DNA of 63,821 nt, counting the filler, from Chrysochromulina tobinii (Eukaryota): NCBI GenBank assembly GCA_001275005.1. It is 6 parts of 6 records of this genome, joined end to end, with 100 filler letters (N's around TTAATTAATTAA, not from the genome) between each part and the next. Parts side by side here need not be neighbours in the genome. Positions count along the whole stretch, not along the records: positions 9,799 to 17,987 come from JWZX01000561.1; 5 more parts are not named here. One strand, 5' to 3'. Position numbers and translations under genes: made by a program. The number at the start of each line of letters is the position of its first letter. Position 1 is the stretch's first letter. Under the pieces are notes generated by a model. That model had not been told where the DNA came from, did not search any database, and saw only the letters and a list, made by a program, of their open reading frames with translations. Below are positions 2 through 55,769 of the stretch, piece by piece.

Positions 2-3000
2 CTTGGCGCGCTTGACGGCGACGGGCTTGTGGCGCAGCCAGAGCGGCAGCGCCTCGGGCCGCAGCGACGACAGCGCATCCGCGGTGAAAACGTTGCCGTA
101 GCCGCCGCTGCCGATGAGCCGCTGCTCTCCAAAGCCGTCCGTCGCCGCCGCAAGCTCGGCGAGCGTGAGGGCGACAGCTGCAGGCGGCACCGAGGGTGCC
201 TCCGGGGCCTCCGATGCCCGCGCCGCTTCTGCGGATGCTGAGCCTGTGGCAGGCGGCGACTGTGTGACCTCGTGCAGCGACAGCTTCGACAGGCTGGCTT
301 GCATCTTCATCTCCGCCGCGTGCTTGCGACGCAGCTTCTGGCTCTCCTGCTTGCGCTTCTTGTGCAAGCGCTCGCGCATCGCCCTCGCCTCCGCCAACAC
401 ACCCTCGCTCGCGAGTGCGTGGTGCTCCTCGATCGCCCCGACCAGGCCCTCGTACTGCGCGGCCGCCATGGCCACTCGCAGCGCCTCGTCGGCGGTGGCA
501 GAAGTAGCAGGAGGACACACGCCGTCCTCGTCGCCAGCCGCCGCCGACACCTCGTCGTCCGCCTCGGCGCTGCCACTCGCGGCCGCTGACGCACTCGCTA
601 CCGGCGCTCTCGCCTCGCTCGCCCCTGGCTGCTTGGCTTTGGCTTTCTTGCTCGCTTTCTTCGTGTGCGCCTGCTGCTTGTGCGCAGCCTCCGCCTCCTC
701 CTCAGCCAGCAGAGCCGCAGCGGCAAGCTCGGCTGCCCGCTCGGCTGCCGCACGCTCCGCACGCTCCGCACGCTCCGCACTCGACACTGGAGCGACCGCA
801 GCGATCGTCGCAGGTGCGCGGCCCCTGCTGCGCAGAAATCTTGCGATGACGGTGTGGCCTTGGGCCTCTGCGACATCGAGGGCTGTGCCCGCAGCGACTC
901 GCAAGTCGGTGCGTGCGCCAGCATGCACGAGCAGCTTGACTATGTCGTCGTGGCCTTTCTTGCAGGCGGTGTGCAGAGGCGTGGCGCCCTTGCGGTCTGA
1001 CTGGTTGACGGCGGCGTGGGCGGCGAGCAGCAGCCGCACGCAGCCGCCGTGCCCTTTGATGCATGCGATGAGCAGAGGCGTGCTGCCGTTGCTGGTTGCC
1101 TGGTCGACGACGGCGTGGGCGGCGAGCAGCAGCTGCACGCAGTCGCCTTCGCCTTTGTTGCAGGCGGCGATCAGAGGCGTGGTACCGTTGCGGTCTGCCT
1201 GGTTGACGGCGGCGTGGGCGGCGAGCAGCAGCTGCACGCAGCCGCCGTCGCCTTTGTTGCAAGCGATGAGCAGAGGCGTCATGCCGTTGCTGGTTGCCTG
1301 GTCGACGGCGGCGTGGGCGGCGAGCAGCAGCCGCACGCAGTCGCCGTCGCCTTTGATGCAGGCGTTGATCAGAGCCGTGAGGCCGTTGCGGTCCGCCTGG
1401 TCGATGACGGCGTGGGCGGCGAGCAGCAGCTGCACGCAGTCGCCGTCGCCTTTGTCGCAGGCGGCCATCAGAGGCGTGGTGCCTTTGCTATCCGCCTGGT
1501 CGACGGCAGCGTGGGCGCCGAGCAGCAGCCGCACGCAGTCGCCGTCGCCTTTGATGCAGGCGGCGTGCAGAGGCGTGGCGCCGTTGCTGGCTGCCTGGTC
1601 GACGGCGGCGTGGGCGGCGAGCAGCAGCTGCACGCAGCCGCCATCGCCTTTGCTGCAGGCGTAGATCAGAGGCGTGGCGCCATCACTGGCTGCGTGGTCG
1701 ACGGCGGCGTGGGCGCCGAGCAGCAGCTGCACGCAGCCGCCGTCGCATTTGTCGCAGGCAGCGAACAGAGGCGTGACGCCTTTGATGTTTGCCTGGTCGA
1801 CGGCGGCGTGGGCGGCGAGCAGCAGCCGCACGCAGTCGCCGTGCCCTTTGTCGCAGGCAGCGTAGAGAGGCGTGGTGCCGCTGCTGTCTGCCTGGTCGAT
1901 GACGGCGTGGGCGGCGAGCAGCAGCCGCGCGCAGTCGCCGTCGCCTTTGATGCAGGCGTAGATCAGAGGCGTGGCGCCGCTGATGTCTGCCTGGTCGACG
2001 GCGGCGTGGGCGGCGAGCAGCAGCCGCACGCAGCCGCCGTCGTATTTGTTGCAGGCGACGATCAGAGGCGTGAGGCCGTTGCTATCTGCCTGGTGGACGG
2101 CGGCGTGGGCAGCGAGCAGCAGCTGCACGCAGCTGTCATCGCCTTTGAGGCAGGCGGCGAGCAGAGGCGTGGTGCCGTCACAGGCTGCCTGGTCGACGGC
2201 GGCGTGGGCGGCGAGCAGCAGCCGCACGCAGCCGCCGTGGCCTTTGTCGCAGGCGGCGATCAGAGGCGTGCGGCCGTTGCTGCCTGCCTGGTCGATGACG
2301 GCGTGGGCGGCGAGCAGCAGCTGCACGCAGTCGCCGTCGCCTTTGATGCAGGCGGCCATCAGAGGCGTGGTGCCGTTGCTGTCTGCCTGGTCGACGGCGG
2401 CGTGGGCGGCGAGCACGAGCTGCACGCAGTCGCCGTCGCCTTTGATGCAGGCGGCGAGCAGAGGCGTGACGCCGTTGCTGGCGGCCTGGTCGACGGCGGC
2501 GTGGGCGGCGAGAAGCAGCCGCACGCAGATGCTGTCGCCTTTGATGCAGGCGGCGTGCAGAGGTGTGCCGCCGTCGCTGTCTGCCTGGTCGACGGCAGCG
2601 TGGGCGCCGAGCAGCAGCCGCACGCAGTCGCCGTCGCCTTTGATGCAGGCGGCGTGCAGAGGCGTGACGCCGTCGCTGTCGGCCTGGTCGACGGCGGCGT
2701 GGGCGGCGAGCAGCAGCTGCACGCAGTCGCCGTGGCCTTTTTCGCAGGCGGCGAACAGAGGCGTGCCGCCTTCGCGGTCTGCCTGGTCGACGGCGGCGTG
2801 GGCGGCGAGCAGCAGCTGCACACAGTCGCCGTGGCCTTTGTCGCAGGCGGCGATCAGAGGCGTGGTACCGTCTCTGTCTGCCTGGTCGACGTTGGCATGG
2901 GCGGCGAGCAGCAGCCTTGTGCACTTAGGGTGACCTGTCTCACATGCACTTAGCAGGCAACGGCCGAGGTGGGCCGCTCCTTCGACGCTGTCGATGAAGC

Positions 3001-3073
3001 CCACGGCCGTGGCCTCGTCGCCGCAATGGAGCGCGACGACCATCGCGTGGGCCGTCTCGATGCTGCCACTCAT
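2..3073 (-). CDS. Ankyrin-repeat (20 TPL-type repeats plus caps) protein fused to an IRAK/Pelle/RLK-like Ser/Thr kinase; 3'-partial, runs off the window start
   Basis: Not in the ORF track because it has no stop in the window. ATG at 3073 reads MSGSIETAHAMVVALHCGDEATAVGF..., then 99-nt repeats DQADxxGxTPLxxACxKGxGDCVQLLLAAHAAV, an Ala/Lys-rich linker, then LTLAELAAATDGFGEQRLIGSGGYGNVF...KPVAVKRAK (Gly-rich loop and VAVK lysine) at about 170-2. Confidence 0.9.
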   Translation of the reverse strand, partial: MSGSIETAHAMVVALHCGDEATAVGFIDSVEGAAHLGRCLLSACETGHPKCTRLLLAAHANVDQADRDGTTPLIAACDKGHGDCVQLLLAAHAAVDQADREGGTPLFAACEKGHGDCVQLLLAAHAAVDQADSDGVTPLHAACIKGDGDCVRLLLGAHAAVDQADSDGGTPLHAACIKGDSICVRLLLAAHAAVDQAASNGVTPLLAACIKGDGDCVQLVLAAHAAVDQADSNGTTPLMAACIKGDGDCVQLLLAAHAVIDQAGSNGRTPLIAACDKGHGGCVRLLLAAHAAVDQAACDGTTPLLAACLKGDDSCVQLLLAAHAAVHQADSNGLTPLIVACNKYDGGCVRLLLAAHAAVDQADISGATPLIYACIKGDGDCARLLLAAHAVIDQADSSGTTPLYAACDKGHGDCVRLLLAAHAAVDQANIKGVTPLFAACDKCDGGCVQLLLGAHAAVDHAASDGATPLIYACSKGDGGCVQLLLAAHAAVDQAASNGATPLHAACIKGDGDCVRLLLGAHAAVDQADSKGTTPLMAACDKGDGDCVQLLLAAHAVIDQADRNGLTALINACIKGDGDCVRLLLAAHAAVDQATSNGMTPLLIACNKGDGGCVQLLLAAHAAVNQADRNGTTPLIAACNKGEGDCVQLLLAAHAVVDQATSNGSTPLLIACIKGHGGCVRLLLAAHAAVNQSDRKGATPLHTACKKGHDDIVKLLVHAGARTDLRVAAGTALDVAEAQGHTVIARFLRSRGRAPATIAAVAPVSSAERAERAERAAAERAAELAAAALLAEEEAEAAHKQQAHTKKASKKAKAKQPGASEARAPVASASAAASGSAEADDEVSAAAGDEDGVCPPATSATADEALRVAMAAAQYEGLVGAIEEHHALASEGVLAEARAMRERLHKKRKQESQKLRRKHAAEMKMQASLSKLSLHEVTQSPPATGSASAEAARASEAPEAPSVPPAAVALTLAELAAATDGFGEQRLIGSGGYGNVFTADALSSLRPEALPLWLRHKPVAVKRAK
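930..2915 (-). repeat. Coding tandem array of 20 x 99-nt ankyrin repeats
   Basis: AGAGGCGTG (reverse complement of the TPL codons) or a close variant recurs every 99 nt from about 976 to about 2857. Confidence 0.95.
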
Positions 3074-7512: not shown

Positions 7513-7960
7513 ATCAACATGTGAAATCCAGCCCCTCTTTTCTCATTGTGAATGGGGGCTTCCACGCCGAGCGTGAGTGGGGGCGCCCGCGCCGGGCCGG
7601 TGAGCGCCTCCCACGCACGCCTTTTCGGGGCTTGTGGGTGTGTGTCTGGCCGAGTGGGTGTGTGTGCTGACGAGCAAACATCTCGTCTTCCCACAGCTCG
7701 CGGAAGCAGAAGTGCGTCCACAGCCATGGTAAGTGTCCTGTGGGGTGCTTCACTTCCGTGTGGTGGTTACAAAAAGTTGGGAAACCTCAGGGGGGGGCGT
7801 TGCCCCCCAGGGAGGGGGGGTGGCCTCCCCCGGAGGGGGGGGCCACTTAGGCCACGTGTTTAGGGGCCAGGTGTGTGTGTCTGCCTGAAACGAACGAACG
7901 AAGCCCGCGCCGGGCCGCCCCGAGGAAGGGGAAGGGGAGGAGAGTGTGAAATCCCTCGCG

Positions 7961-9698
7961 ATGGACGCGAGTGGCAGCGCGCGCGCCGAGGCCGTCGACG
8001 CGATGTTCGACGCGCTCCGTCGCGGTGACGAGGCCAAGGCCGTGGGCTTCATCGACAGGGTGACAGGAGCGGCCCACCTCGGCCTTTGCCTGCTTCGTGC
8101 ATGTGAGACTGGTCACCCTACGTGCACGAGGCTGCTGATCGCTGCCCACGCCGCCGTCGACCATGCAGACAGCAACGGCCTCACGCCTCTGCTCGCCGCC
8201 TGCATCAAAGGCGACGGCGGCTGCGTGCAGCTGCTGCTCGCCGCCCACGCCGCCGTCGACCAGGCAGACAGCAACGGCAAGACGCCTCTGATCGCCGCCT
8301 GCCTCAAAGGCGACGGCGACTGCACGCAGCTGCTGCTCGCCGCCCACGCTGTCGTCGACCAGGCAGACAGCAACGGCATCACGCCTCTGATCTTCGCATG
8401 CATCAAAGGCCGCGGCGTCTGCGTGCAGCTGCTGCTCGCCGCCCACGCCGCCGTCGACAAGGCAGGCAGCAACGGCCTCACGCCTCTGATGCAAGCCTGC
8501 TATGTAGGCCACGGCGACTGCGTGCAGCTGCTGCTCGCCGCCCACGCCGCCGTCGACCAGGCAACCAGCGACGGAGCCACGCCTCTGATCTACGCATGCA
8601 TCGAAGGCCGCAGGGACTGCGCGCAGCTGCTGCTCACCGCCCACGCCACCGTCGACCAGGCAGACCGCGACGGCGGCACGCCTCTGATCTACGCCTGTAT
8701 TTATGACCACGGCGACTGCGTGCGGCTGCTGCTCGCCGCCCACGCCGCCGTCGACCAGGCAGGCCGCAACGGCCGCACGCCTCTGAACCACGCCAGCCAT
8801 ATAGGCCACGGCGACATAGTCAAGCTGCTCGTGCATGCAGGCGCACGCACCGACTTGCGATGCGGTGCGGGCACAGCCCTCGATGTCGCAGAGGCCCGAG
8901 GCCACACCGCCATCGCAAGATTCCTGCGCAGCAGGGGCCGCGCACCTGCGACGATCGCTGCGGTCGCTCCGGTGTCGAGTGCGGAGCATGCGGCAGCCGA
9001 GCGGGCAGCCGAGCTTGCCGCTGCGGCTCTGCTGGCTGAGGAGGAGGCCGAGGCTGCGCACACGAAGAAAGCCAAAGCCAAGCAGGCAGGGGCGAGCGAG
9101 GCGAGAGCGTCGGTAGCGAGTGCGTCAGCGGCCGCGAGTGGCAGCGCCGAGGCGGTCGACGCGATGGTCGACGCGCTCCGTCGCGGCGACGAGGCCAAGG
9201 CCGTGGGCTTCATCGACAGGGTGACAGGAGCGGCCCACCTCGGCCTTTGCCTGATTCGTGCATGTGAGACTGGTCACCCTACGTGCACGAGGCTGCTGAT
9301 CGCTGCCCACGCCGCCGTCGACCATGCAGACAGCGACGGCGGCACGCCTCTGATCTACGCATGCATCAAAGGCCGCGGGGCCTGCGCGCAGCTGCTGCTC
9401 GCCGCCCACGCCGCCGTCGACCAGGCAGACCGCGACGGCGGCACACCTCTGCACGCCGCCTGCATCAAAGGCGACGGCGACATAGTCAAGCTGCTCGTGC
9501 ATGCTGGCGCACGCACCGACTTGCGATTCGCTGCGGGCACAGCCCTCGATCTCGCAGAGGCCCACGGCCACACCGTCATCGCAACATTCCTGCGCAGCAG
9601 GGGCCGCGCGCCTGCGACGATCGCTGCGGTCGCTCCGGTGTCGAGTGCGGAGCGTGCGGCAGCCGAGCGGGCAGCCGAGCTTGCCGCTGCGGCTCTGC
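7961..9698 (+). CDS. Ankyrin-repeat protein, paralogue of 2-3073, with an internally duplicated cassette (7 + 2 TPL repeats); 3'-partial at the gap
   Basis: ORF 7946..9754 with ATG at 7961. Same N-cap (GDEAKAVGFID...AAHLGLC), repeats and C-cap (GTALDVAEARGHT) as the minus-strand gene; the cassette restarts at about 9135. Confidence 0.9.
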
Positions 9699-9798
9699 NN
9701 NNNNNNNNNNNNNNNNNNNNNNNNNNNNNNNNNNNNNNNNNNTTAATTAATTAANNNNNNNNNNNNNNNNNNNNNNNNNNNNNNNNNNNNNNNNNNNN
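9699..9798. other. Artificial contig spacer (also at 17988-18087, 29280-29379, 49368-49467, 55465-55564)
   Basis: Identical 44N + TTAATTAATTAA + 44N each time; the 12-mer has stops in all six frames. Confidence 0.97.
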
Positions 9799-9839
9799 TA
9801 GGGTTAGGGGTCAAAAGAGGAGAATGAGAGAAGAAATGA

Positions 9840-10023
9840 CCCTAACCCTAACCCTAACCCTAACCCTAACCCTAACCCTAACCCTACCCTAACCCTAACC
9901 CTAACCCTAAGAACCCTAACCCTAACCCTAAGAACCCTAACCCTAACCCTAAGAACCCGAACCCGAACCCGAACCCCGAACCCGAACCCCGAACCCGAAC
10001 CCGAACCCGAACCCGAACCCTAA
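9840..10023 (+). repeat. Telomere-type (CCCTAA)n tract degrading into CCCTAAGAA and CCCGAA variants
   Basis: Read directly; lies about 40 nt from a contig start. Confidence 0.9.
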
Positions 10024-10277
10024 GTGCAAATTCCAAATATGCAACTTTTTTCCAAAGTGTAAAGACTTCCCGCTATGACTAACCTTTCAAAACGTACCAA
10101 AATGCGTTATGTACAAATGCATTTGCGTAGACGTACAAATACTGTCCAAATGCGTTACGTTCGGTGTCGTCGTGCTCGTGTCGTAAGGTCAACGGCTGAG
10201 ATATCTTCAGACAGTGGGCTTACTCTTGACCAAATGCGTAGACGTACTTAAAGAAATTGAAAAGAACCGCGTCGCGA

Positions 10278-13200
10278 TCACCCTTCTTGGTGAACGCGAC
10301 CGGCTGTTCGCAGTGCGTGGATAAACGAGACAAGCACCCAGCGGAAGTTGGCCGCTGCGCACACGGTTTGAAAGCCCAGAGCGTCCGTGCTAGCAGGCAG
10401 CATCTGCCGCCGGAGGGACTTGCGGATATTGATCACACTCTGACGGTCGGGCTCATGTTGGCAAAATGCCGTTTCGAGCTTATCATCGGTCTGCAGCAGC
10501 CACCCGGGCGTCGTGTGAGAGCTCACAGCAGGGTCGCTTGAGTTTACGATGCGCTGGGTAAAAGCTGAGGCGCTGAAGCCGTGCAGGCACCACATGGACT
10601 CGAAGTAAGTGCATCGATGGTCGAGCATGGGCGCATCGGGCAGCACGACGGTTTTAATGCGGAAGTGGGTGTTGGCGAAGCGAGCCCACCAGACATTCTG
10701 TTCCGCCTTGCGGCCCTCCTCCCAGTCGATGCTCGTCCAATCCCAGAGCACAAGATCCTCATCAAAAGCTTCATTATCCCTATCCAGCACTGCGACCAGC
10801 TTTTCGAGCCGATGGCGCTCCTTGTCTGGATGCTTCTCTTCGGCCCATCGGTAGTCTAGGCAGTAGAGCTGCACGTTGCTCGGCGGAGCGCCCACGTGTA
10901 GCGCTTTGGCCGGGGCGTGCTTTCGCTTTGGCACAACAAGCTGCTCCTTGTACCATCGACGCAGGAAGCCGACCCGCACCCAGGCAATATTCAGCCTGCT
11001 GCACGTTTCATTGAAGCCGGCGACGTCCCATCGCGGGTCGCGTTCCTCCTCAGGCTTTTTAATGAGCGTGTGGCGAGACGCTCGGGTGGATGGCTTGGAA
11101 GCCGCACAGCCCATCAGCAATGGACCGCGGTACCGCTTGGAAGAGATGAAATTGGAAGATAAGTCCAGCCAGTGCAATGTTCTGCCAGAGAGCGCCTCGG
11201 CGAGAGCCTTGCCGCCCTCATCCCCCAGCCCGTTGCTGTTGAGGCTCAGCTGTGTCAGCGTCGTGTTTGTCCGGAGCGCCATGGCGAGCGAGCGGCCGCC
11301 GGCATCGCCCAGCTTGTTACCGTTGAGGCTCAGCTGCGTCAGCGTCGTGTTCGTCTTGAGCACCTCGCCGATCTCCTTGCCGCTCTCCTCGCCGAGCTCA
11401 TTGCTACCCAAGTCGAGCAGCTCCGCCTCAACAGCAACGGGCTGGGCGATGCGGGCGGCTGCGCGCTCGCGGTGGCGCTCCAGACGAACACAACGCTGGC
11501 GCAGCTCGACTTGGGTGGCAACGAGCTCGGCGCGGAGAGCGGCAAGGCGATGGTCGAGGCGCTCAAGACGAACACGACGCTTCGTACGGTTGCGTTGGAC
11601 GGCGATGTTCTCTCGATCGCGGAGATCACCACAGCGGCAAGAATTACGCTTTCGGAGAAGCGCTTGGGCGATGCGTCGGGGATCGTGATCGCGCACCTAG
11701 TCACACGTCACCGGTCTTTGACGCGGCTTGACTTGAACAGCAACAAGCTGGGCGACGCGTGTGGCTGCGCGCTTGCCGAAGCGCTCAAGACGAGCACGAC
11801 CCTGACGCAGCTCGACTTGGGTGGCAACGAGCTCGGCGCGGAGAGCGGCAAGGCGATGGTCGAGGTGCTTGAGACGATCACGACCCTGACGCAGCTCGAC
11901 TTGGGCGACAACGAGCTCGGCGCGGAGAGCGGCAAGGCGATGGTCGAGGCGCTCAAGACGAACACGGCGTTGACGCAGCTCGACTTGGGCGGCAACGAGC
12001 TCGGAGCGGAGTGCGGCAAGGCGATGGCCGAGGTGCTCAAGACAAACAGGACGCTGAGGCATCTGAGCCTCAACGGCGCCAAGATGGGCGATGCGGGCGG
12101 CTGCGCGCTCGTGGTGGCGCTCCAGACCAACACGACGCTGGCGCAGCGTTAGAGTCGGGTTGAACTCGATGCACTTGGCAATCACAATTGCTGATGCATC
12201 TTCCAGGCTCTTCCAGGAGTAGTCCAGGAAATGAACTGGAACAGTGCCCTTCAGCTGCTCAATGTTAAGCTCAAACCCATCGATGTTCATCTTTTTAAGC
12301 ATTGTCATTAACTGCAGGTCAGACCCAATCAGGATGGCGTCGGCGGGTTGGAGGCTCTGGCCCGAGAGGTTGGCCTCCGTCTGGTCGCGCGTCATGCCCG
12401 AGAGCATGATGCAGTTCTCCGTGCCGATCTTGGCGAGCATCGTGGCCGACTTAATGTCGAGATTGTTCTTGAGCAGGCTGCAGTGTTTCAGCTCTGTGTT
12501 CTTCATCATGGCCGCCAGCACGATCCACACCGTCTTGGGGTCGCCGCCGAGCTTCTGCGAGAGGTCGAGCGTGTTGCCCGTCACCCCGGCCGTGCACAGC
12601 AGCCCACGGCCAAAGGCGTCGCCCATCTCGCTGCCGAACGTGACCACGTTGGCCCATAACGCCGGCCATTGCCACGGCGGCGGCGACCCCTCGGGGAGGC
12701 GGTACTTTCCCGAGCAGATGGCGCGCGCTGCAAAGTACTCTTGGAAGGAGTGGTGCGCCGACTGCATCTGGATCGGCTCGACCTGCAGCAGGCTGAGAAT
12801 AGGGAGCCTATCCTGCCCCACGCGCTCGCGAACCTGCGCGACCGCCGCCTGCTTCTCGTCGCGCAGCGCCTTGACCGCACTGCGCAGGGCAGGAAGGCGC
12901 CTCGCGTCCGCTCTCGCCATCTGCGCCCGGCAAGCAGCTTCATCCAGCCCGGACGATGCGAGCTGCTCGGGGTTCAGGTACCCTGTTGTGGTGCCGTCCG
13001 CCAACTTGACCTTGTATGGCTGGCTGTCCTTGTAGTCCTGGACAATCTCGCCGCGTTGGCCCTTCCGCTCGCCCTCCAGCAGCTCCACGTAGTGGCCCAC
13101 CTCCGCCCGGCCCTTGAACGTCTGGAAAGGGTTCGCCACCTTCGCATCCAGGTCGGCGAGCGCGCTCGCCGGCGCAAAGGCGCCCAGCGCCGCGCGGAGG

Positions 13201-16200
13201 AGCTGCACGTCGGTGATCACGCGCGTCTGCGCCACGTGCGCCTCGAAGAACACGGCTTCCAGCAGCATGCGCCTTTCTGCCGTCCCGCCGCCGCCGCGCG
13301 CGAGCATCACGTCCGATGCGATCGCGTACAGCTCGGCGACCGTCTTCGGCATGCCCAGCCCTTTGCGGATCTCGAAGACCGACGCGACCATCGAGAGCAT
13401 CAGCGGGTTGGCCGTGACGCGATGCAGCGTCGTCGGCGCGTCGGGGTCCGTGCTCGTTGGCATGCGCTCGACAAAGGTCATCAGCTGCTTCACGTCCCCC
13501 TCATTCCCCAGTCGCTGCAGCAGCGCCTGCTCTTGCTGCGCCTCGGTCAGCGGCGCCAGGTTCAGCAAGCGGAATCCGGAAAAACGCGCCTCGTCGACGC
13601 CCGCCGGCCGCGAGGTGCAGAGCATCACGTGGCCCTGCGGTGCCAGCACCTCAACAATATGCTGCTCAATCTCGGCGCGCTTGGCTCCGGCCTCGTTGAG
13701 CCCGTCGAGGAGGAGCAGCGCTCGCCGCGCCGTCATCGCCTGGCGCAGCATGCGGTACACCTCGGGCCTCTCAGTGAGGCAGAGGTACGCGTCGATCCAG
13801 TTCCAGTGCGACGCGAACGCGTCTGGTGTATCGCGCAGCCTCGCCTGGAGCAGCTGCACCTTGATCACGATGGGCACCAGCTCGGCGCGATCGAGCGCCA
13901 GGACCACCGCCTGGCTGATGAGCGTCGTCTTGCCCGCTGCGGGCGGCGCGGTGAGCAGCGCGGCTCCCGGGGCAGTGATCGCCTCGCCGAAGCTTCGTGA
14001 AGCGTGTAGCGAGTGCAGCCAATCGCTCAGGCCGCGCACGTCGTGCACGCCAGCCAGATCAGCATCTCCCATCACTTCGATGGCCACGCACTGCTGCAGC
14101 GCATCCAACGGATTGCCGGAGAGCGCATCGAAGATCTGCGAGTGCTGCGTGCGCAGCTCCCGCGTCCACCACCCGCTAAGCGCCTCGTAGGCGGCGTGCG
14201 GCAGCTCGCGCGGCGCGTGGTTCCACGGGTGCAGCGTGAGCGTGGCTGGTGACTCGCCGCTGCCCTCCAAGAAGGTGAGGCCATGGCAGAGGCCGTCGGC
14301 GCCCGCCGTTGCCACGTTGGCATCGCGCCACCCGGCGGCCGTACGCACGGTGAGCGGCTGGCCGGCGGCGTAGCGCCGGGCGCCGAGCGCGCCGCTGGAG
14401 AGCAGCGCCGTAGTGACCATGGCCTCGGGCAGCAGCCTCTCGACCGCCGCACGCACCTTGCCGAGCGCGGCTTGGAGCTGCGTCAGATCGCCGTCACCAA
14501 AGAGCGCCGCCGCTGCGTCTACGCACGACCACACAGCGCCGCCCGCCTCGCGCGCCACGTGCGCGATCGTTTGGCACCGCGCTGCGCCGTCGGCAATCGC
14601 GCGCGCTCGCTCGCCGACGGCGAGCAGCGCCGATTCCGACTCCATCCGCCGAGCATCGTCCGCCAGGCGGCGTGCAGGCTCGACGAGGTTGTGGAGCGCA
14701 CGCGCATCGCCGATAAACGCGGCGTCCCAGCCGGCAGCGGGCGGCCGCCACGGCAGCACCGCCTGGCTGCATCGGTCGTAGGCGAGCTCGAACTCATCGC
14801 CGCCCGTGACGGCGGCAGCGACACGCCCCCCGGTCGCATCGACGACGCCAAAGCGCGGCCCGTCGCCCGCGCCGCTGCCCTGCGAAGAGAGCAGGAGCAG
14901 CGGCTGTCCCTCGGCAAGGCGCAGCGGCGACGCGGCAGGCGCATCGACCTGCGGCAGCGGCTCCGCCGGCGCGGCCGTCGCGCTGTGCGACGCCATCTGA
15001 AGCGCCCCGAGCGTCTTTGTCAGCGCGCCGACGGTGTTGTGCACGTACTCCTTATAGAGGCTGATGACCTTGTGCTTTTCGCCCTTGCTCGTGAACTTAG
15101 ACTTGTTGATCCGCTCAATGTCAGCGGCTACGTCGAGCTCGATCGCCGTAACCTCAACCGCTGTCGCGTCCGCGTCGCTGCTCAGCGCGAAGACCTTGGG
15201 CTGCAGCTGATCGAGGGGCTTCCGGAGCGCGGGGTAGGCCGTCAACCGCTTTATGAGGTCTCGGCTCAACGAGTCTTCCAAGCAGCACCTGCGCGGGAGA
15301 GTGCGGCAGGCGCGTGAGGGTTATGAAAGGGGATCCAATCACATCTGCAGAATAGGACGGGCAGCACTCACCATCCACGAGAAAAGTACGGCGTCTCATT
15401 GTAGAGCGTGTCGAGCCCCTCGCATAGGCCGGGCCATGAACCCGCGTTCTTGGCCGCGACGGCAGACTCGTGCGAGGCAAAGCGCACAATGGGGGGGCTG
15501 TGGCTGAGGTCGCAGCTCTCAATAGTTCCGAACCCGATGAGCGCCGCGCGTACCGCGCTCTCGTCGACGTTTGCGCTCAACATGAACAAGCAGACAACGC
15601 CATCGAACTCGGCTGGCCGGGGTGGGATCTCCTCGATCTGGAGCACGGTCGTTGCGAGGATCGACGCAAACAGCAGATTCAACGCCCCCCCCTTGAGTGC
15701 CATCGAAAAGAACTCATCCTGCTCCGGGGTCCTTGGTCTCTGATACAGCGATCCAAAGTCCCAGAACAAGGCTTCAATTCGAATTGCCATCCCCTTCAGA
15801 GCGCGTCGAAGCGACGCGGATGCGCGAGCCGTCCGGATCTGGATCGCCTGGACTGAGCCAGCCGTAGGTAAGCGCGCCGATGCTCCGATCTCCACGCTCG
15901 ACGAGCGCTGCGGCCTCTTGAGGGTTCAGCAGTGGCGACGGCGAGACCCCGCTCTTTTCAATCTCCTCGAGCGCCTGCCGATTCGGCATCTTGAAGTTGG
16001 CTGGCTGCATCAGTAGCCACTTGACGCATAGCAACCGAACCGCTCCTCTCAGAAGGACTAGTATGATGATTTTGTCGAGCTCTGTGAGCGCCTGACGCAG
16101 CTTTGGCGGCAGCGGTGTACCTGGAGCTGCCTCCGGCACGTCAAGGCCGAGACTCACGAGCTTCCTCTTGTGTTGTTCGCCCACATCGTCGAGAAACACC

Positions 16201-16994
16201 GACCGCTCCTGCGCCGATGCACCTTCGTAGGCAGCCTTGATGTCCGCGTCTGGGCTCTCGTCGGTCAAAGCAGAGGCACCCGCACCCATGCCTCCTCGGA
16301 TGCGCAAAATCCCTGCCAATCGCTCCCCTGCCGCCAGCTCAATCACGTCAACAATGGAGATGCCGATCTCGACGTTCGTCGGCTCGGCCACCGCCCCTGC
16401 CGACGCCACCTCTGCCGACGCCGCCTCTGCCGACGCAGCCTCTGCCGATGCCGCCGCTCCCTCCGTCGCCGCTCCGGCCGCCGGCAGCACAACCTCTGTC
16501 TTCTTCCGCCTACAGTTGGCAGCCTTGGCGATGAGCTTGGGGATCTTGGTGCACGAGATGATGAAGATATGCACGGCGGAGGTAGTCATGAAGATCCAGA
16601 GGCGAGGATGAGTGAGGAACCAATGCAGAACTATGAGGATAGAGAGCGCGCCGTCCTTGTCGCGATTGAACGCATGGAAGGCCACGAGCTCCTCGATGAA
16701 TTGAATGGCCGGGTCGATGAAATACCCCACGGTGGCACGCGGCTTCGCCCACTGGCTTTGCTTCAGGGCACCCATCATGCCATCGAGAGAGCAGTTGCGA
16801 GAGATAAGCCCCATCGCAGCCTCACGCGTCCACATGAAATCGGCGGGGAAAGCGCCGCCGCCGCTGCTTGCCGTGGCTGCTGCTGCAGCAAGCGACGAGT
16901 TGTGGCGCTGCGGGGCTGAAAAACGGGCCTGAGAGGCATTTTTGCCGACCCCCCCGATGTCGAGGAGCGGATCGAGTCGAGTTGAGAGCGTCAT
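10278..16994 (-). CDS. NLR-like protein: HET-like + NACHT NTPase + ribonuclease-inhibitor-type LRR + second HET-like domain; disrupted as assembled (frameshift near 15812, LRR inversion 11418-12146); intron 15289-15371
   Basis: HET-like: ALTYGWLSPGDPDPDG...LFWDFGSLYQ...TTVLQ...PYFSRGW|CCLE. NACHT: TAPPAAGKTTL, LLLLDGLNE, CTSRP, ANPLML, HHSFQEYFAA. 28-aa LRRs TLTQLDLGGNELGAESGKAMVEALKTNT. C-terminal CLDYRW..HPD..VLWDWTSI..YFESMWCL. The start codon is tentative. Confidence 0.8.
11418..12146 (+). other. Inverted 729-nt (243-codon) LRR cassette belonging to the minus-strand NLR-like gene
   Basis: LRRs read on + only between these coordinates. The minus-strand reading breaks off at ...EFNPTLT (12147) and resumes at LDLGSNELG (11417). 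Confidence 0.9.
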
Positions 16995-18087
16995 GAGCGC
17001 GAGGAGTGTTCTAGTCGCCGTTCCGTGAGTTAAGTTCCTGTGAGTTGGAACACTCACGTGACATGGAGAATGGCCTTCCCCCGTGTCTCAGTGTGTATGT
17101 GTGTAGGTACGCGAAGCGTTACTGTGGGGAAACGTGAGGGGTAGGCGTTCGCTGGATTTGCGAGTCTCCGACGCGTGTCGCGTGGCTTGCTTGTGCCCGC
17201 CTGTGTGAGCGTGGCCTGCGGTGTTACCCGCAAGCAGTGTAAGCTGATTGAGAGACTAATCTGTCCTCGAACTTGGAACGTGGTGACGTCTGTGAAAAAA
17301 GATTCTAAAGTGAAAGGTAAGTACGTGTTTTTTTCTGTTTTTGCTGTTTATGCGGAAAAAATGGCGGCGAGGAAGCCTAATCCGGCCACCAATGGCCTCG
17401 GCTCGGATGGGGTCGACGGGTTGCAGCGCTGGGGCGACGTGCCGCCGACCGCGGTGGAAGCCGATCTGTCTGAAGTGTTCCTTCTCGAAGACATGGTCAC
17501 TTCGGCCTTCGTGATGAATGAGGAGCTTCATATCCTCTCGTGGTAGGGCGACGTGACGACGCTCAAGGTGGACGCGGTGGTGACTTGCAATAACGATGGC
17601 ATGAACGAGCGCGCGGGTGTTTCGGGCCAGCTCTTCGTTGCCGCTGGCCCGCAGCTCGACGAGAAAGCCACAGCCGAGAAGGCGGCGGCAAACAAGGCAG
17701 CAGACGCGAAAGCCGCTGCCGAAAAGGCCGCAGCAGCGGCGGCGGCGGAGGCGGCGCTTCGTCGTCATATGCTGTGCGTGCTTCCGTCGAGATGGCGGCG
17801 GCGGAGGCAAAGGCGGTGGCCGAGAAGGGGGCGGCGGAGGCCAAGGCGGCGGCCGAGAAGGCGGCGGCCGAAGCCTCAGTCGCGGCCAAGAAGGCAGCAA
17901 AGAAAACCGCGAACGGCGAACCGCGCGCGCGGGCCCCGCGGGCGCGCGCGCGCCCCGGGCAAGCGCCCCAGGGCGCCAGGAGGGCGCNNNNNNNNNNNNN
18001 NNNNNNNNNNNNNNNNNNNNNNNNNNNNNNNTTAATTAATTAANNNNNNNNNNNNNNNNNNNNNNNNNNNNNNNNNNNNNNNNNNNN

Positions 18088-29279: not shown

Positions 29280-29955
29280 NNNNNNNNNNNNNNNNNNNNN
29301 NNNNNNNNNNNNNNNNNNNNNNNTTAATTAATTAANNNNNNNNNNNNNNNNNNNNNNNNNNNNNNNNNNNNNNNNNNNNAGGACGGTCCGGGACGAGCCA
29401 GCATGGGCCGGGACAGGCGCCATTCGGATTTTTGGTTAGTGTCGCTAACCCCACTTTCTCTCTGACAGTGTGTTCTTATTTATACGGACACATGAGAGAG
29501 GGTGCGGAGGCGCAGGATTCCTCATTAACATTATTATTTTGTCCTTAAAAATACACCGCGAATCCACATTCGTTTCGTCAAATTCCTCTGCTTTGCGAGC
29601 TTTGTGTGTGCTCGAAATCGTAAATGCCTAATCATTGTTTCGAGCCCTTTAATCGTAAATCGATGACCTGGTTCAGCCGAAATCTGGAGCGCGTCCGCCG
29701 GCGCACATTCGTATCGTCCAATTCTCTTCAATTCCTAGTTTATAGGATACCTATTTGGTCCCTGGTTGCAGAGAGAGGTGTCAGAGGTTTCACGATTCTT
29801 ATGTACAGACACGGCGGCGCTCGCACACTCACACGGGGTTCGATGAAACCGTCTACCCGCACGAGCCGTCCAATCGTCCGAGCCGCCAAGAAATGTACGG
29901 AGCTGGCGCCGGGCCAACCACGATCCAGTCCTAGTTTCTGGTAAGCACGATAGTC

Positions 29956-49238: not shown

Positions 49239-49687
49239 AGATCAACAAAGATAAACGGGCCGGTGGTCGGAGTTCTTTTAATAGCGCCGAGTTGGGACGA
49301 GTCGGTGAGGACGATCTGCCTTGGTCTCAGTTCGATTCAACCTAAATCGGGTCACACAATTCTAGGTNNNNNNNNNNNNNNNNNNNNNNNNNNNNNNNNN
49401 NNNNNNNNNNNTTAATTAATTAANNNNNNNNNNNNNNNNNNNNNNNNNNNNNNNNNNNNNNNNNNNNGCGCGTCTGAATGCATGCAAAAAACAATGAAAT
49501 GCATATGTATGCACACGCATGCATACGAATGCACATGAATGCGTATGTTAAAAAACAACACCACTTTCGTTAAAAAACAACACTCCACCCATTAATTCGC
49601 GAGGGCGCGAGCGCGCCGCGTCACCAGTACCGGGCGAGGGCTGCGCGCCCGCGACGGCGCCCAGCGCAATAGATATCCGACGCGTCG

Positions 49688-55203: not shown

Positions 55204-55769
55204 TTGTATGCGTCGATAGCTTCCCACTGTGATCGGCTCATCGAGTGCGCCAACGTGTACTCTGCCTTGGCAAGCTCCTCCTCTTTGGCCTTGCGCTCCT
55301 TGCGCACGTCGGCGTCGCGCCGCCACGACGATCGCGAGCTCGGAGGGCGAGGTCATCTTGTTGCTAGACACTCAAGGGTCTCTCCACAGTCCGGACGAAA
55401 CGCGCCGTTTTGGACCCCGCATGCAATTGGGGGAATGGGGGGGGGAGGGGGGGGGGGGGGGGGGNNNNNNNNNNNNNNNNNNNNNNNNNNNNNNNNNNNN
55501 NNNNNNNNTTAATTAATTAANNNNNNNNNNNNNNNNNNNNNNNNNNNNNNNNNNNNNNNNNNNNTAACGGCAACGGCCGGCCTCCCACCACCTCTCTCAG
55601 GAGGTTATAATAATGCTAAACTTACGATATGACTTCACCAACCATCAATAAGGATTCGAGCCGAAATGACCTCACTTTTACCCTACCCGGAACCCGCCCA
55701 CGGGCGAACGACGCGACGCCGCCGCCGTGCCCGCGAAGGGGCCACCTCGACTCCGGGTCCGGCAGTAGT

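What the first reader, a model, noticed from the sequence alone, without database searches (positions are those of the whole stretch)
11418..12146. Precisely inverted LRR cassette inside an NLR-like gene; flipping restores frame and repeat register
Seen: re-inverting 11418-12146 (729 nt, 243 codons) gives ...EFNPTLT|QLRLNSNGLG...QTNTTLAQ|LDLGSNELG... with no base gained or lost. Both restored breakpoints fall in the same LRR word CGCAGCTC, at the pseudo-palindrome GCWGC, and the present junctions are the interrupted palindromes GAGCAGCTC and CGCAGCG. As assembled, the NACHT ORF runs into antisense LRR and stops at 11697. Inference: either a reversible switch or repeat-shuffling intermediate that diversifies the sensor (LRR exon shuffling is proposed for brown-algal immune-like genes), a one-off inactivating inversion, or an amplification/assembly chimera.
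Basis: partly seen in the sequence, partly recalled or inferred. Interest (0 to 1): 0.85.

Follow-up and report, generated by a model that had tools for sequence, protein, structure and literature searches.

The report
Clean inversion breaks algal NLR-like gene
A 729-base piece of the repeat-coding part of one immune-receptor-like gene of a Chrysochromulina-type alga lies backwards in every assembly examined, and this likely just disables one copy of a large gene family rather than working as a switch.

Summary
Window 11418-12146 carries RI-type LRR units on the + strand, inside a minus-strand NACHT-LRR gene. Turning it back in a script gives one 1667-aa frame, collinear with paralogues across both joints. 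The ends can be placed 1 nt either way. At the widest, 11417-12147, the piece is bounded by the same LRR word GCAGC, 726 nt apart.

It is not an assembly artefact. Two other assemblies (L001, L002) have the same layout. Unitig-derived contigs bridge the right joint in 4 of 4 DNA runs laid and the left joint in 1 of 4, at single-copy depth. No strand-changing contig was seen.

No support for a switch. Only one orientation was found. There are no terminal inverted repeats beyond the 5-nt quasi-palindrome and no recombinase family among 19 large ORFs. No second case turned up in 14 paralogue loci with LRR arrays or in 211 other family proteins.

Best reading is a single, recent, microhomology-level inversion that truncates one member of a large haptophyte NLR-like family. 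Raw reads could not be counted, so a rare opposite orientation is not excluded. Interest is modest.

The parts
15372..16289 (-). Exon 1 of the gene: starts MGAGASAL..., about 306 aa. N-terminal domain with no Pfam match. In the window only, an extra G at 15813 shifts the frame.
   Evidence: L002 has one continuous ORF here. The ATG at 16289 was checked. tblastn of P0011 changes frame at about 15812 in the window. The extra G is absent from L001, L002 and L010. Pfam gives 0 families.
15289..15371 (-). 83-nt GT..AG intron, phase 2, between exon 1 and the NACHT exon.
   Evidence: GTGAGT...GCGCAG boundaries. Joining gives ...SRGW|CCLEDSL, matching P0011 ...SRGWCCCEDSL.
12147..15288 (-). Main exon, upstream part: STAND/NACHT-like NTPase (Walker A ...AAGKTTL...) and a pre-LRR region ending ...IEFNPTLT.
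   Evidence: Pfam NACHT E 8.6e-4, 19.6 bits, below the cut-off of 26.7. Relatives P0010 (27.9 bits) and P0022 (29.0 bits) pass at the homologous place. 239 relatives found.
11418..12146 (+). The inverted cassette: about 8.7 LRR units, including one irregular module (LRTVALDGDVLSIAE...), coded on the strand opposite to the gene. Equivalent placements are 11417-12147 and 11419-12145.
   Evidence: LRR_6 E 2.6e-26 on +. Repeats. Re-inversion restores the ORF. Identical in L001 and L002.
11417..11421 (.). Left joint: GCAGC, centre of the interrupted palindrome GAGCAGCTC.
   Evidence: Bridged by a 133-nt contig of run X5 (11338-11470, 0 mismatches, depth 30.2).
12143..12147 (.). Right joint: GCAGC, within the interrupted palindrome CGCAGCG.
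   Evidence: Bridged by contigs of X1, X2 and X3 (11975-12421) and X5 (11975-12355, 0 mismatches, depth 46.5).
11697..11699 (-). TAG that ends the as-assembled ORF. It is the antisense of a CTA Leu codon of the cassette.
11166..11417 (-). Last three LRR units, still in the gene's own orientation (LDLGSNELGEESG ... SGRTLHWLDLSSN).
   Evidence: LRR_6 E 3.9e-13 on the - strand. The motif scan finds LRR hits at 11417, 11333 and 11249 on the - strand. Aligns with the C-terminal LRRs of P0020.
10278..11090 (-). Downstream reading frame starting MGCAASKP..., probably the first exon of the next gene in tandem. It has the same kind of N-terminal domain as exon 1.
   Evidence: Translation. The motif likeness to exon 1 was read by eye and not tested.

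Best explanation
A 729-731-bp segment of the LRR-coding exon of one NACHT-LRR (NLR-like) gene is inverted in the DNA of this Chrysochromulina-type haptophyte. The inversion was most likely a single event and likely leaves the gene encoding a truncated, LRR-less product. Shown: the segment is reversed, cleanly (no base gained or lost against the 84-nt register), and bounded by the same pentamer GCAGC in two in-phase LRR units. The same layout occurs in the window, in two other assemblies and in short-read contigs at single-copy depth. Re-inversion gives a frame collinear with paralogues. Inferred: two breaks, or two replication template switches, at the quasi-palindrome GCWGC were rejoined with the piece flipped. 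GCWGC equals its own reverse complement except for the middle base, so the ends share 2+2 nt of inverted microhomology. Because the flip is codon-aligned in a gene whose codons mostly end in G or C, the antisense codons mostly start with G or C. The frame therefore runs on by itself for 149 codons, until a CTA codon reads as TAG. The predicted product is the N-terminal domain plus NACHT plus a meaningless 149-aa tail, with only three LRR units stranded downstream out of reach. That amounts to a dead or deregulated copy in a family of many paralogues.
For: Strand switch of LRR_6 inside one gene. One 1667-aa ORF after in-script re-inversion. The re-inverted product is collinear with paralogues across both joints, with the irregular module in the same place (P0020 63%/334 aa, P0027 58%/434 aa). 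L002 (99.97% over 7.5 kb) and L001 (98.3%; 0 differences between 9833 and about 13200) are collinear with the window through the cassette. The window is a separate assembly from these: an extra G at 15813 and a divergence at 17294. The predicted protein P0001 carries the identical antisense tail. Contigs of 4 of 4 DNA runs laid bridge the right joint and 1 of 4 the left joint, at depth 30-49 against 40-48 in the flank. No strand-changing joint is listed. Two sequence variants of the locus exist: L001 and L010 share 66 differences and a 15-nt insertion against the window and L002. The variant whose LRR part is assembled (L001) has the same inversion, so it is inherited. No other inverted array among the 14 other loci that show an array, of 26 loci scanned (10 loci showed no array in the fetched stretch). 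1 of 212 family proteins, this gene's own product P0001, has an antisense-LRR segment. Terminal inverted homology is only GCWGC. Weak hint: a lake RNA contig of run X16 (4 mismatches in 141 nt) matches 12146-12286 and stops matching exactly at the breakpoint, with 10 further letters that do not fit. This is what a relative without the inversion would give.
Against: Only contigs, not raw reads, could be laid, and contigs drop rare variants. A minority of the opposite orientation is therefore not excluded. The left joint is listed in only 1 of the 4 runs (many pieces were not shown). The runs, L001 and L002 are all labelled 'mixed culture metagenome' and may be sister samples of one culture, so the independence is of library and assembler, not of biology. 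The cassette and the three stranded LRR units have no stop or frameshift in their own sense. This fits a recent event but would also fit a maintained element. Both breakpoints in the same phase of an 84-nt unit has roughly a 1-4% chance for random breaks, which hints at a sequence-dependent process. No uninverted orthologue was found in any database, so the ancestral state is inferred from paralogues only. Loss of function is predicted, not measured. No RNA of the culture was available.
Confidence: 0.75

Rival explanations
1. Programmed or recurrent flipping: the cassette is an invertible element (an on/off switch), or a step in in-register LRR shuffling that diversifies the sensor. Now that LRR units face each other, homologous recombination between them could flip sub-segments again.
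For: The flip is exact, codon-aligned and bounded by the same quasi-palindromic word in phase. The cassette keeps an intact sense frame. The present state holds inverted LRR arms of 75-89% complementarity that could in principle recombine (for example 84-nt arms 11341-11424/11498-11581 at 89%).
Against: Only one orientation in three assemblies and in the contigs of 4 runs, at full single-copy depth and with no strand-change joints. Terminal inverted repeats are 5 nt with a mismatch. No recombinase, transposase or integrase family among 19 large ORFs of the window. No second case in the 14 other loci that show an array, of 26 scanned, nor in 211 other family proteins. Seven of 10 GCWGC sites in the array are the same word, so the in-phase ends need no special machinery.
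Confidence: 0.07
2. Assembly, scaffolding or amplification chimera: the inversion does not exist in the cells.
For: LRR tandem repeats are hard to assemble. The window has N runs and at least one probable local error (the extra G at 15813).
Against: Both joints lie in k=31-derived contigs of separate runs, at the depth of the single-copy flank. Two other assemblies give the identical layout. The junction palindromes (9 and 7 nt) are far shorter than any assembler's word length, so a graph cannot turn strand there without real reads. Random chimeras would not recur at one site at full depth in several libraries.
Confidence: 0.03
3. A real, one-off inversion whose product is used. Options: an LRR-less NACHT protein with altered (for example constitutive) activity; a transcript that skips the cassette and keeps three LRRs (729 nt is 243 codons, so skipping is in frame); or a separate LRR-only product from the + strand ORF 11172-12152.
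For: Introns with GT..AG exist in this gene. The + strand ORF of 326 aa is open. A lake RNA-library contig of run X13 covers 11597-11824 with 1 mismatch. Both sequence variants of the locus keep the region 9833-13200 identical.
Against: The long antisense frame follows trivially from a codon-aligned flip in a gene whose codons mostly end in G or C. No splice evidence and no RNA from the culture. An RNA library can hold DNA. The family has many intact paralogues, so loss of one is cheap.
Confidence: 0.12

Closest known systems
Microhomology or quasi-palindrome-mediated inversions (end joining after two breaks, or replication template switching of the FoSTeS/MMBIR type); named from my own knowledge, no paper read here
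   Same: Breakpoints lie in a short self-complementary word (GCWGC). There are 2+2 nt of inverted microhomology, no long inverted repeats, and no bases lost or added.
   Different: Both ends lie in the same phase of a tandem coding repeat, so the product stays codon-aligned. The mechanism is inferred from the scar alone.
Birth-and-death and structural disruption of NLR paralogues in expanded immune-receptor families (plants, animals; general knowledge)
   Same: A large, fast-evolving NACHT-LRR family: 239 relatives, and LRR depth up to about 30 times single copy. One member is broken in its LRR part.
   Different: The lesion is an exact intragenic inversion rather than a deletion, frameshift or TE insertion. 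The host is a haptophyte alga. A full-text search for 'intragenic inversion' together with 'leucine-rich repeat' found 0 papers.
Site-specific invertible DNA switches and shufflons of bacteria (Hin/Gin, fim, Rci shufflon; general knowledge)
   Same: A coding segment is flipped exactly, in frame, and bounded by short inverted sequence.
   Different: No recombinase and no 12-30-bp terminal inverted repeats. Only one orientation is seen. This is a eukaryotic nuclear gene.
LRR cassette rearrangement: lamprey VLR assembly, and the LRR exon shuffling proposed for Ectocarpus ROCO/NB-ARC genes (PMC3341825, abstract and passages read; PMC11378527, listing only)
   Same: LRR units of a candidate immune receptor are the rearranged modules.
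   Different: Those systems copy or shuffle separate cassettes or exons. Here the LRRs form one uninterrupted exon, nothing is copied in, no donor cassettes flank the gene, and no diversity among copies of this locus is seen.

Membership tests
NLR-like protein (STAND NTPase of NACHT type with C-terminal LRR) | NACHT domain (Pfam PF05729) above the curated cut-off | tested here: inconclusive
   The window protein scores 19.6 bits (E 8.6e-4) against a cut-off of 26.7. Relatives P0010 (82% identical) and P0022 score 27.9 and 29.0 bits at the homologous place; P0011 and P0020 score 21. phmmer against PDB sequences gives 0 hits at E<=1.
NLR-like protein (STAND NTPase of NACHT type with C-terminal LRR) | P-loop (Walker A GK[T/S]) and a Walker B acidic motif | tested here: met
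   Read directly in the translation...APPAAGKTTLIS... and ...ALLLLDGLNEAG.... The naming of the motifs is from general knowledge.
NLR-like protein (STAND NTPase of NACHT type with C-terminal LRR) | C-terminal ribonuclease-inhibitor-type LRR array in the same reading direction | tested here: not met
   LRR_6 is strong (E 2.6e-26 and 3.9e-13), but 243 of about 330 LRR codons lie on the opposite strand. The feature is met only after re-inversion, and it is met in paralogues.
Site-specific invertible switch / shufflon | Terminal inverted repeats of recombinase-site length at both ends | tested here: not met
   Only GCAGC at each end, a 5-nt quasi-palindrome. The next bases do not match in inverted sense.
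Site-specific invertible switch / shufflon | Both orientations present in a population | tested here: inconclusive
   Only the inverted form in three assemblies and in the contigs of 4 DNA runs, with no strand-change joints. Raw reads were not available, so a rare form cannot be excluded.
Site-specific invertible switch / shufflon | Recombinase gene nearby | tested here: not met
   Pfam scan of 19 ORFs of 300 aa or more across the 64-kb window finds ankyrin, ABCA, C2, PH, TRM13, transporters and others, but no recombinase, integrase or transposase family. Four large ORFs had no family at all.
Assembly or amplification chimera | Junction unsupported outside the one assembly | tested here: not met
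   Junction-bridging contigs at single-copy depth in separate runs, and the same layout in L001 and L002.
LRR exon/cassette shuffling (Ectocarpus-type, VLR-type) | LRR units as separate exons or flanking donor cassettes | tested here: not met
   The re-inverted array is one open frame without introns. No other RI-type LRR motif occurs elsewhere in the 64-kb window.

The most novel reading that the evidence does not exclude
Haptophyte NLR-like genes flip blocks of LRR units in register at the GCWGC word built into every repeat. Once a block is flipped, the facing LRR units recombine and re-sort. This would be a eukaryotic, shufflon-like way to vary or silence a pathogen sensor, caught here in mid-step.
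Probability: 0.05. Interest if true: 0.85.

Novelty: new member of a known kind. Interest (0 to 1): 0.3.

Why it matters
The finding is a clean, well-documented example of how a tandem-repeat sensor domain can be broken by an exact, codon-aligned inversion at a tiny quasi-palindrome. It also shows that gene callers then report a plausible-looking 1194-1196-aa 'protein' whose last 149 residues are antisense LRR (P0001 is in public databases in that form). It flags a large NACHT-LRR family in Chrysochromulina-type haptophytes as a place where structural variation could be surveyed. If flips at GCWGC proved recurrent, that would be a new route of receptor variation. On present evidence this is one dead or truncated paralogue, of modest interest.

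Tried and rejected
- Own genome: none is held, so no genome-wide scan for other flipped LRR arrays was possible. The scan was limited to 26 metagenome loci and 212 proteins.
- Search for an uninverted orthologue. The NACHT-region search (lengths 574-1829 aa) gave only P0001, which is inverted, above 90% identity. The pre-LRR 101-aa query, longer proteins, again gave only P0001 at 100%. The cassette query, lengths 133-426 aa, gave a best hit of 67% (candidates were capped, so this is weak).
- RNA runs X11, X12, X13 and X16 (lake and freshwater metatranscriptomes, contigs): no contig bridges either joint. Most pieces are short matches to parts shared by paralogues, so they say nothing on orientation or expression. 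The X16 piece that stops at 12146 is only a hint; its 10 loose letters were not shown.
- Depth as a measure of the share of cells: contigs give one figure each, so no fraction could be derived.
- Terminal inverted repeats or a longer palindrome centred on the breakpoints in the restored sequence: none beyond GCWGC (and reading).
- N-terminal domain: Pfam none; ESM Atlas no usable hit.
- PDB sequence search with the NACHT region: 0 hits.
- Earlier notes of this scan: nothing for this place.
- Literature. 'Chrysochromulina' with 'NACHT' gave 7 papers, none on this family's structure; passages of one, PMC12489294, were read. 'intragenic inversion' with 'leucine-rich repeat' gave 0 papers. Two broader searches returned only generic NLR papers.
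- One search printed nothing because of my own script error and was redone.

Full report
**1. What is in the sequence**

The window is eukaryotic. It has 63.6% G+C and genes for ABCA transporters, C2 and PH domains, TRM13, a nucleotide-sugar transporter and ankyrin proteins. The named relatives of the gene in question are all from Chrysochromulina: C. tobinii 'Ctob_' proteins and C. parva 'Chrysochromulina_OHIO' models, at 56-84% identity. The published C. tobin genome has 63.4% G+C, about one intron per gene, and is thought haploid (PMC4580454, passages read). I therefore treat the source as a Chrysochromulina-type haptophyte. The species is not known.

The gene runs on the minus strand.
- Exon 1 (16289->15372) starts MGAGASAL and codes about 306 aa with no Pfam match.
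- An 83-nt GT..AG intron follows (15371->15289).
- The main exon then codes a NACHT-like NTPase and the LRRs.

As assembled, the frame passes ...IEFNPTLT at 12147. It then reads 149 codons of antisense LRR and ends at TAG 11697-11699. Between 11418 and 12146 the + strand codes RI-type LRRs (Pfam LRR_6, E 2.6e-26). From 11417 leftwards the minus strand codes three more units (E 3.9e-13).

Reverse-complementing 11418-12146 in a script gives a single 1667-aa frame with the 28-residue register kept at both joints. Positions 11417/12147 and 11418/12146 are complementary pairs, so the ends can be placed 1 nt either way. In the widest form the piece is 11417-12147 and both ends are GCAGC, 726 nt apart (306 + 5 x 84), in the same LRR word CGCAGCTC.

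**2. Is the re-inverted form the ancestral one?**

Yes, as far as paralogues can show.
- P0020 aligns with the re-inverted product from the first joint through the second to the terminal ...SGRxxHWLDLSxN, at 63% over 334 aa.
- P0027 aligns at 58% over 434 aa.
- The irregular module (LRTVALDGDVLSIAE...RLGDASG.VIAHL) sits in the same place near the start of the array in these paralogues.

No uninverted orthologue (above 90% identity) was found in three protein searches.

**3. Is it real?**

- A metagenome scan returned 26 loci.
- L002 is 99.97% identical to the window over 7.5 kb.
- L001 is 98.3% identical over 7.5 kb.
- Both are collinear with the window through the cassette. L001 has no difference at all between 9833 and about 13200.
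- The window is a separate assembly from these. It has an extra G at 15813, and it diverges from all three related contigs beyond 17294.
- The public protein P0001 (1196 aa) carries the identical antisense tail.

Contigs of public runs, built from 31-letter words, were laid on the window.
- The right joint is bridged in 4 of 4 runs laid: X1, X2 and X3 at 11975-12421, and X5 at 11975-12355 with 0 mismatches and depth 46.5.
- The left joint is listed as bridged in 1 of 4 runs: X5, 11338-11470, 0 mismatches, depth 30.2.
- The single-copy flank (10000-11351) has depth 40.7-48.
- No strand-changing joint is listed, and no loose end at either breakpoint is among those shown.

The junction palindromes are 9 and 7 nt, far below any assembler's word length, so the joints must be in the reads. 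An assembly or amplification chimera is therefore very unlikely.

Caveat: all these records are labelled 'mixed culture metagenome' and may be sister samples. The independence is of library and assembler only.

**4. One event or a process?**

- Only the inverted form was seen.
- Contigs drop rare variants and raw reads were not on offer, so a small share of the other orientation cannot be excluded.
- Of the 26 loci, 14 others carry LRR arrays (three or more motif hits) after the NACHT part, all in the gene's own direction. Ten show no array in the stretch fetched. Only L001 and L002, which are this locus, show the switch. Several of the 14 are the same paralogue from different samples.
- A screen of 212 family proteins against antisense translations of paralogue LRR DNA found 1 hit, P0001 itself.
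- No recombinase family appears among 19 large ORFs of the window.
- The restored array holds 10 GCWGC sites, 7 of them the same 'T-Q-L' word. Once a break or template switch uses such a site, in-phase ends have roughly even odds. For random breaks the chance of the same phase is a few per cent. This hints at a sequence-dependent mechanism, but one needing no more than microhomology.

L001 and L010 come from two further assemblies. They share 66 differences and a 15-nt insertion against the window and L002, in patches that look like exchange with paralogues. The variant with an assembled LRR part (L001) has the same inversion. The inversion is thus inherited across two versions of the locus, not a fleeting state.

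**5. Consequence**

The 149-codon antisense run needs no selection. The flip is codon-aligned, and most sense codons end in G or C. Most antisense codons therefore begin with G or C and cannot be stops. The first CTA codon gives the TAG.

The predicted product lacks a working LRR domain. Loss or deregulation of this copy is inferred, not measured. Lake RNA libraries hold near-identical pieces of the cassette (X13, 11597-11824, 1 mismatch) but no joint. One X16 contig (4 mismatches in 141 nt) stops matching exactly at 12146, with 10 letters left over. A relative without the inversion would give that result, but it is a weak hint.

**6. Comparison and verdict**

The scar looks like a microhomology or quasi-palindrome inversion (general knowledge). 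The setting is the usual turnover of an expanded NLR-like family.
- It fails the tests for a site-specific switch: terminal repeats, recombinase and two orientations.
- It fails the tests for LRR exon or cassette shuffling as proposed for Ectocarpus (PMC3341825, abstract and passages), because the array is one exon with no donor cassettes.
- NACHT membership is borderline for this protein by Pfam, but it is met in close relatives.

Odds:
- Real, one-off, recent, disabling inversion: 0.75.
- Used neo-allele: 0.12.
- Switch or diversifier: 0.07.
- Artefact: 0.03.

Interest is modest (0.3). It would be high only if flips at GCWGC proved recurrent.

Noticed in passing
window 15813: The window has one extra G relative to L001, L002 and L010. 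This shifts the frame of exon 1 of the same gene (tblastn of P0011 changes frame here). Either a local error of the window's assembly or a second lesion of this copy.
   Followed up: partly
window 17294/17295: All three related contigs (L001, L002, L010) stop matching the window at exactly this point. Nearly 4 kb of L002 and of L010, and 840 nt of L001, upstream have no match anywhere in the window. A structural difference or a chimeric join in one of the assemblies.
   Followed up: partly
window 15372-16289 (-) and 10278-11090 (-): Exon 1 of the gene and the next reading frame downstream both start MG..AS. Both share a domain with motifs like ...YGWLSPGDPDPDG...ALFWDFGSLYQ / ...LDYRWAEEKHPDK...LVLWDWTSIDWEE. 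No Pfam or Atlas match. By recall it resembles the motifs of the fungal HET domain; this was not tested. The two look like tandem genes with the same N-terminal module.
   Followed up: partly
L001 and L010 against window 13250-16250: A second version of the locus: 66 shared differences plus a 15-nt insertion, in patches. In one patch it is closer to paralogues (98.2-98.4%) than to the window. This looks like gene conversion among family members, or another strain.
   Followed up: partly
window 9699-9798, 17988-18087, 29280-29379, 49368-49467, 55465-55564: Five places each with two runs of 44 N separated by 12 bases. A regular pattern that looks like masking or scaffolding, not biology.
   Followed up: no
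P0010 (paralogue, residues 1257-1475): A relative 82% identical in the NACHT part carries a match to the dynein microtubule-binding stalk (PF12777, E 3.8e-22) inserted within its LRR region. An odd domain combination.
   Followed up: no
window 11331-11572 and 12299-12661: Summed contig depth reaches 900-1460 against about 45 for single-copy flank in four runs. Some LRR and pre-LRR stretches are therefore shared at 95% or more by roughly 20-30 copies: a very large, recently homogenised family.
   Followed up: partly
window 2-3073 (-) and 7946-9698 (+): Two long ankyrin-repeat genes (Ank_2 E 4.8e-251 and 9.7e-76) with highly regular repeats flank the region. Some LRR-family relatives in the databases carry ankyrin repeats fused to the same pre-LRR module (for example P0124-P0126).
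   Followed up: no
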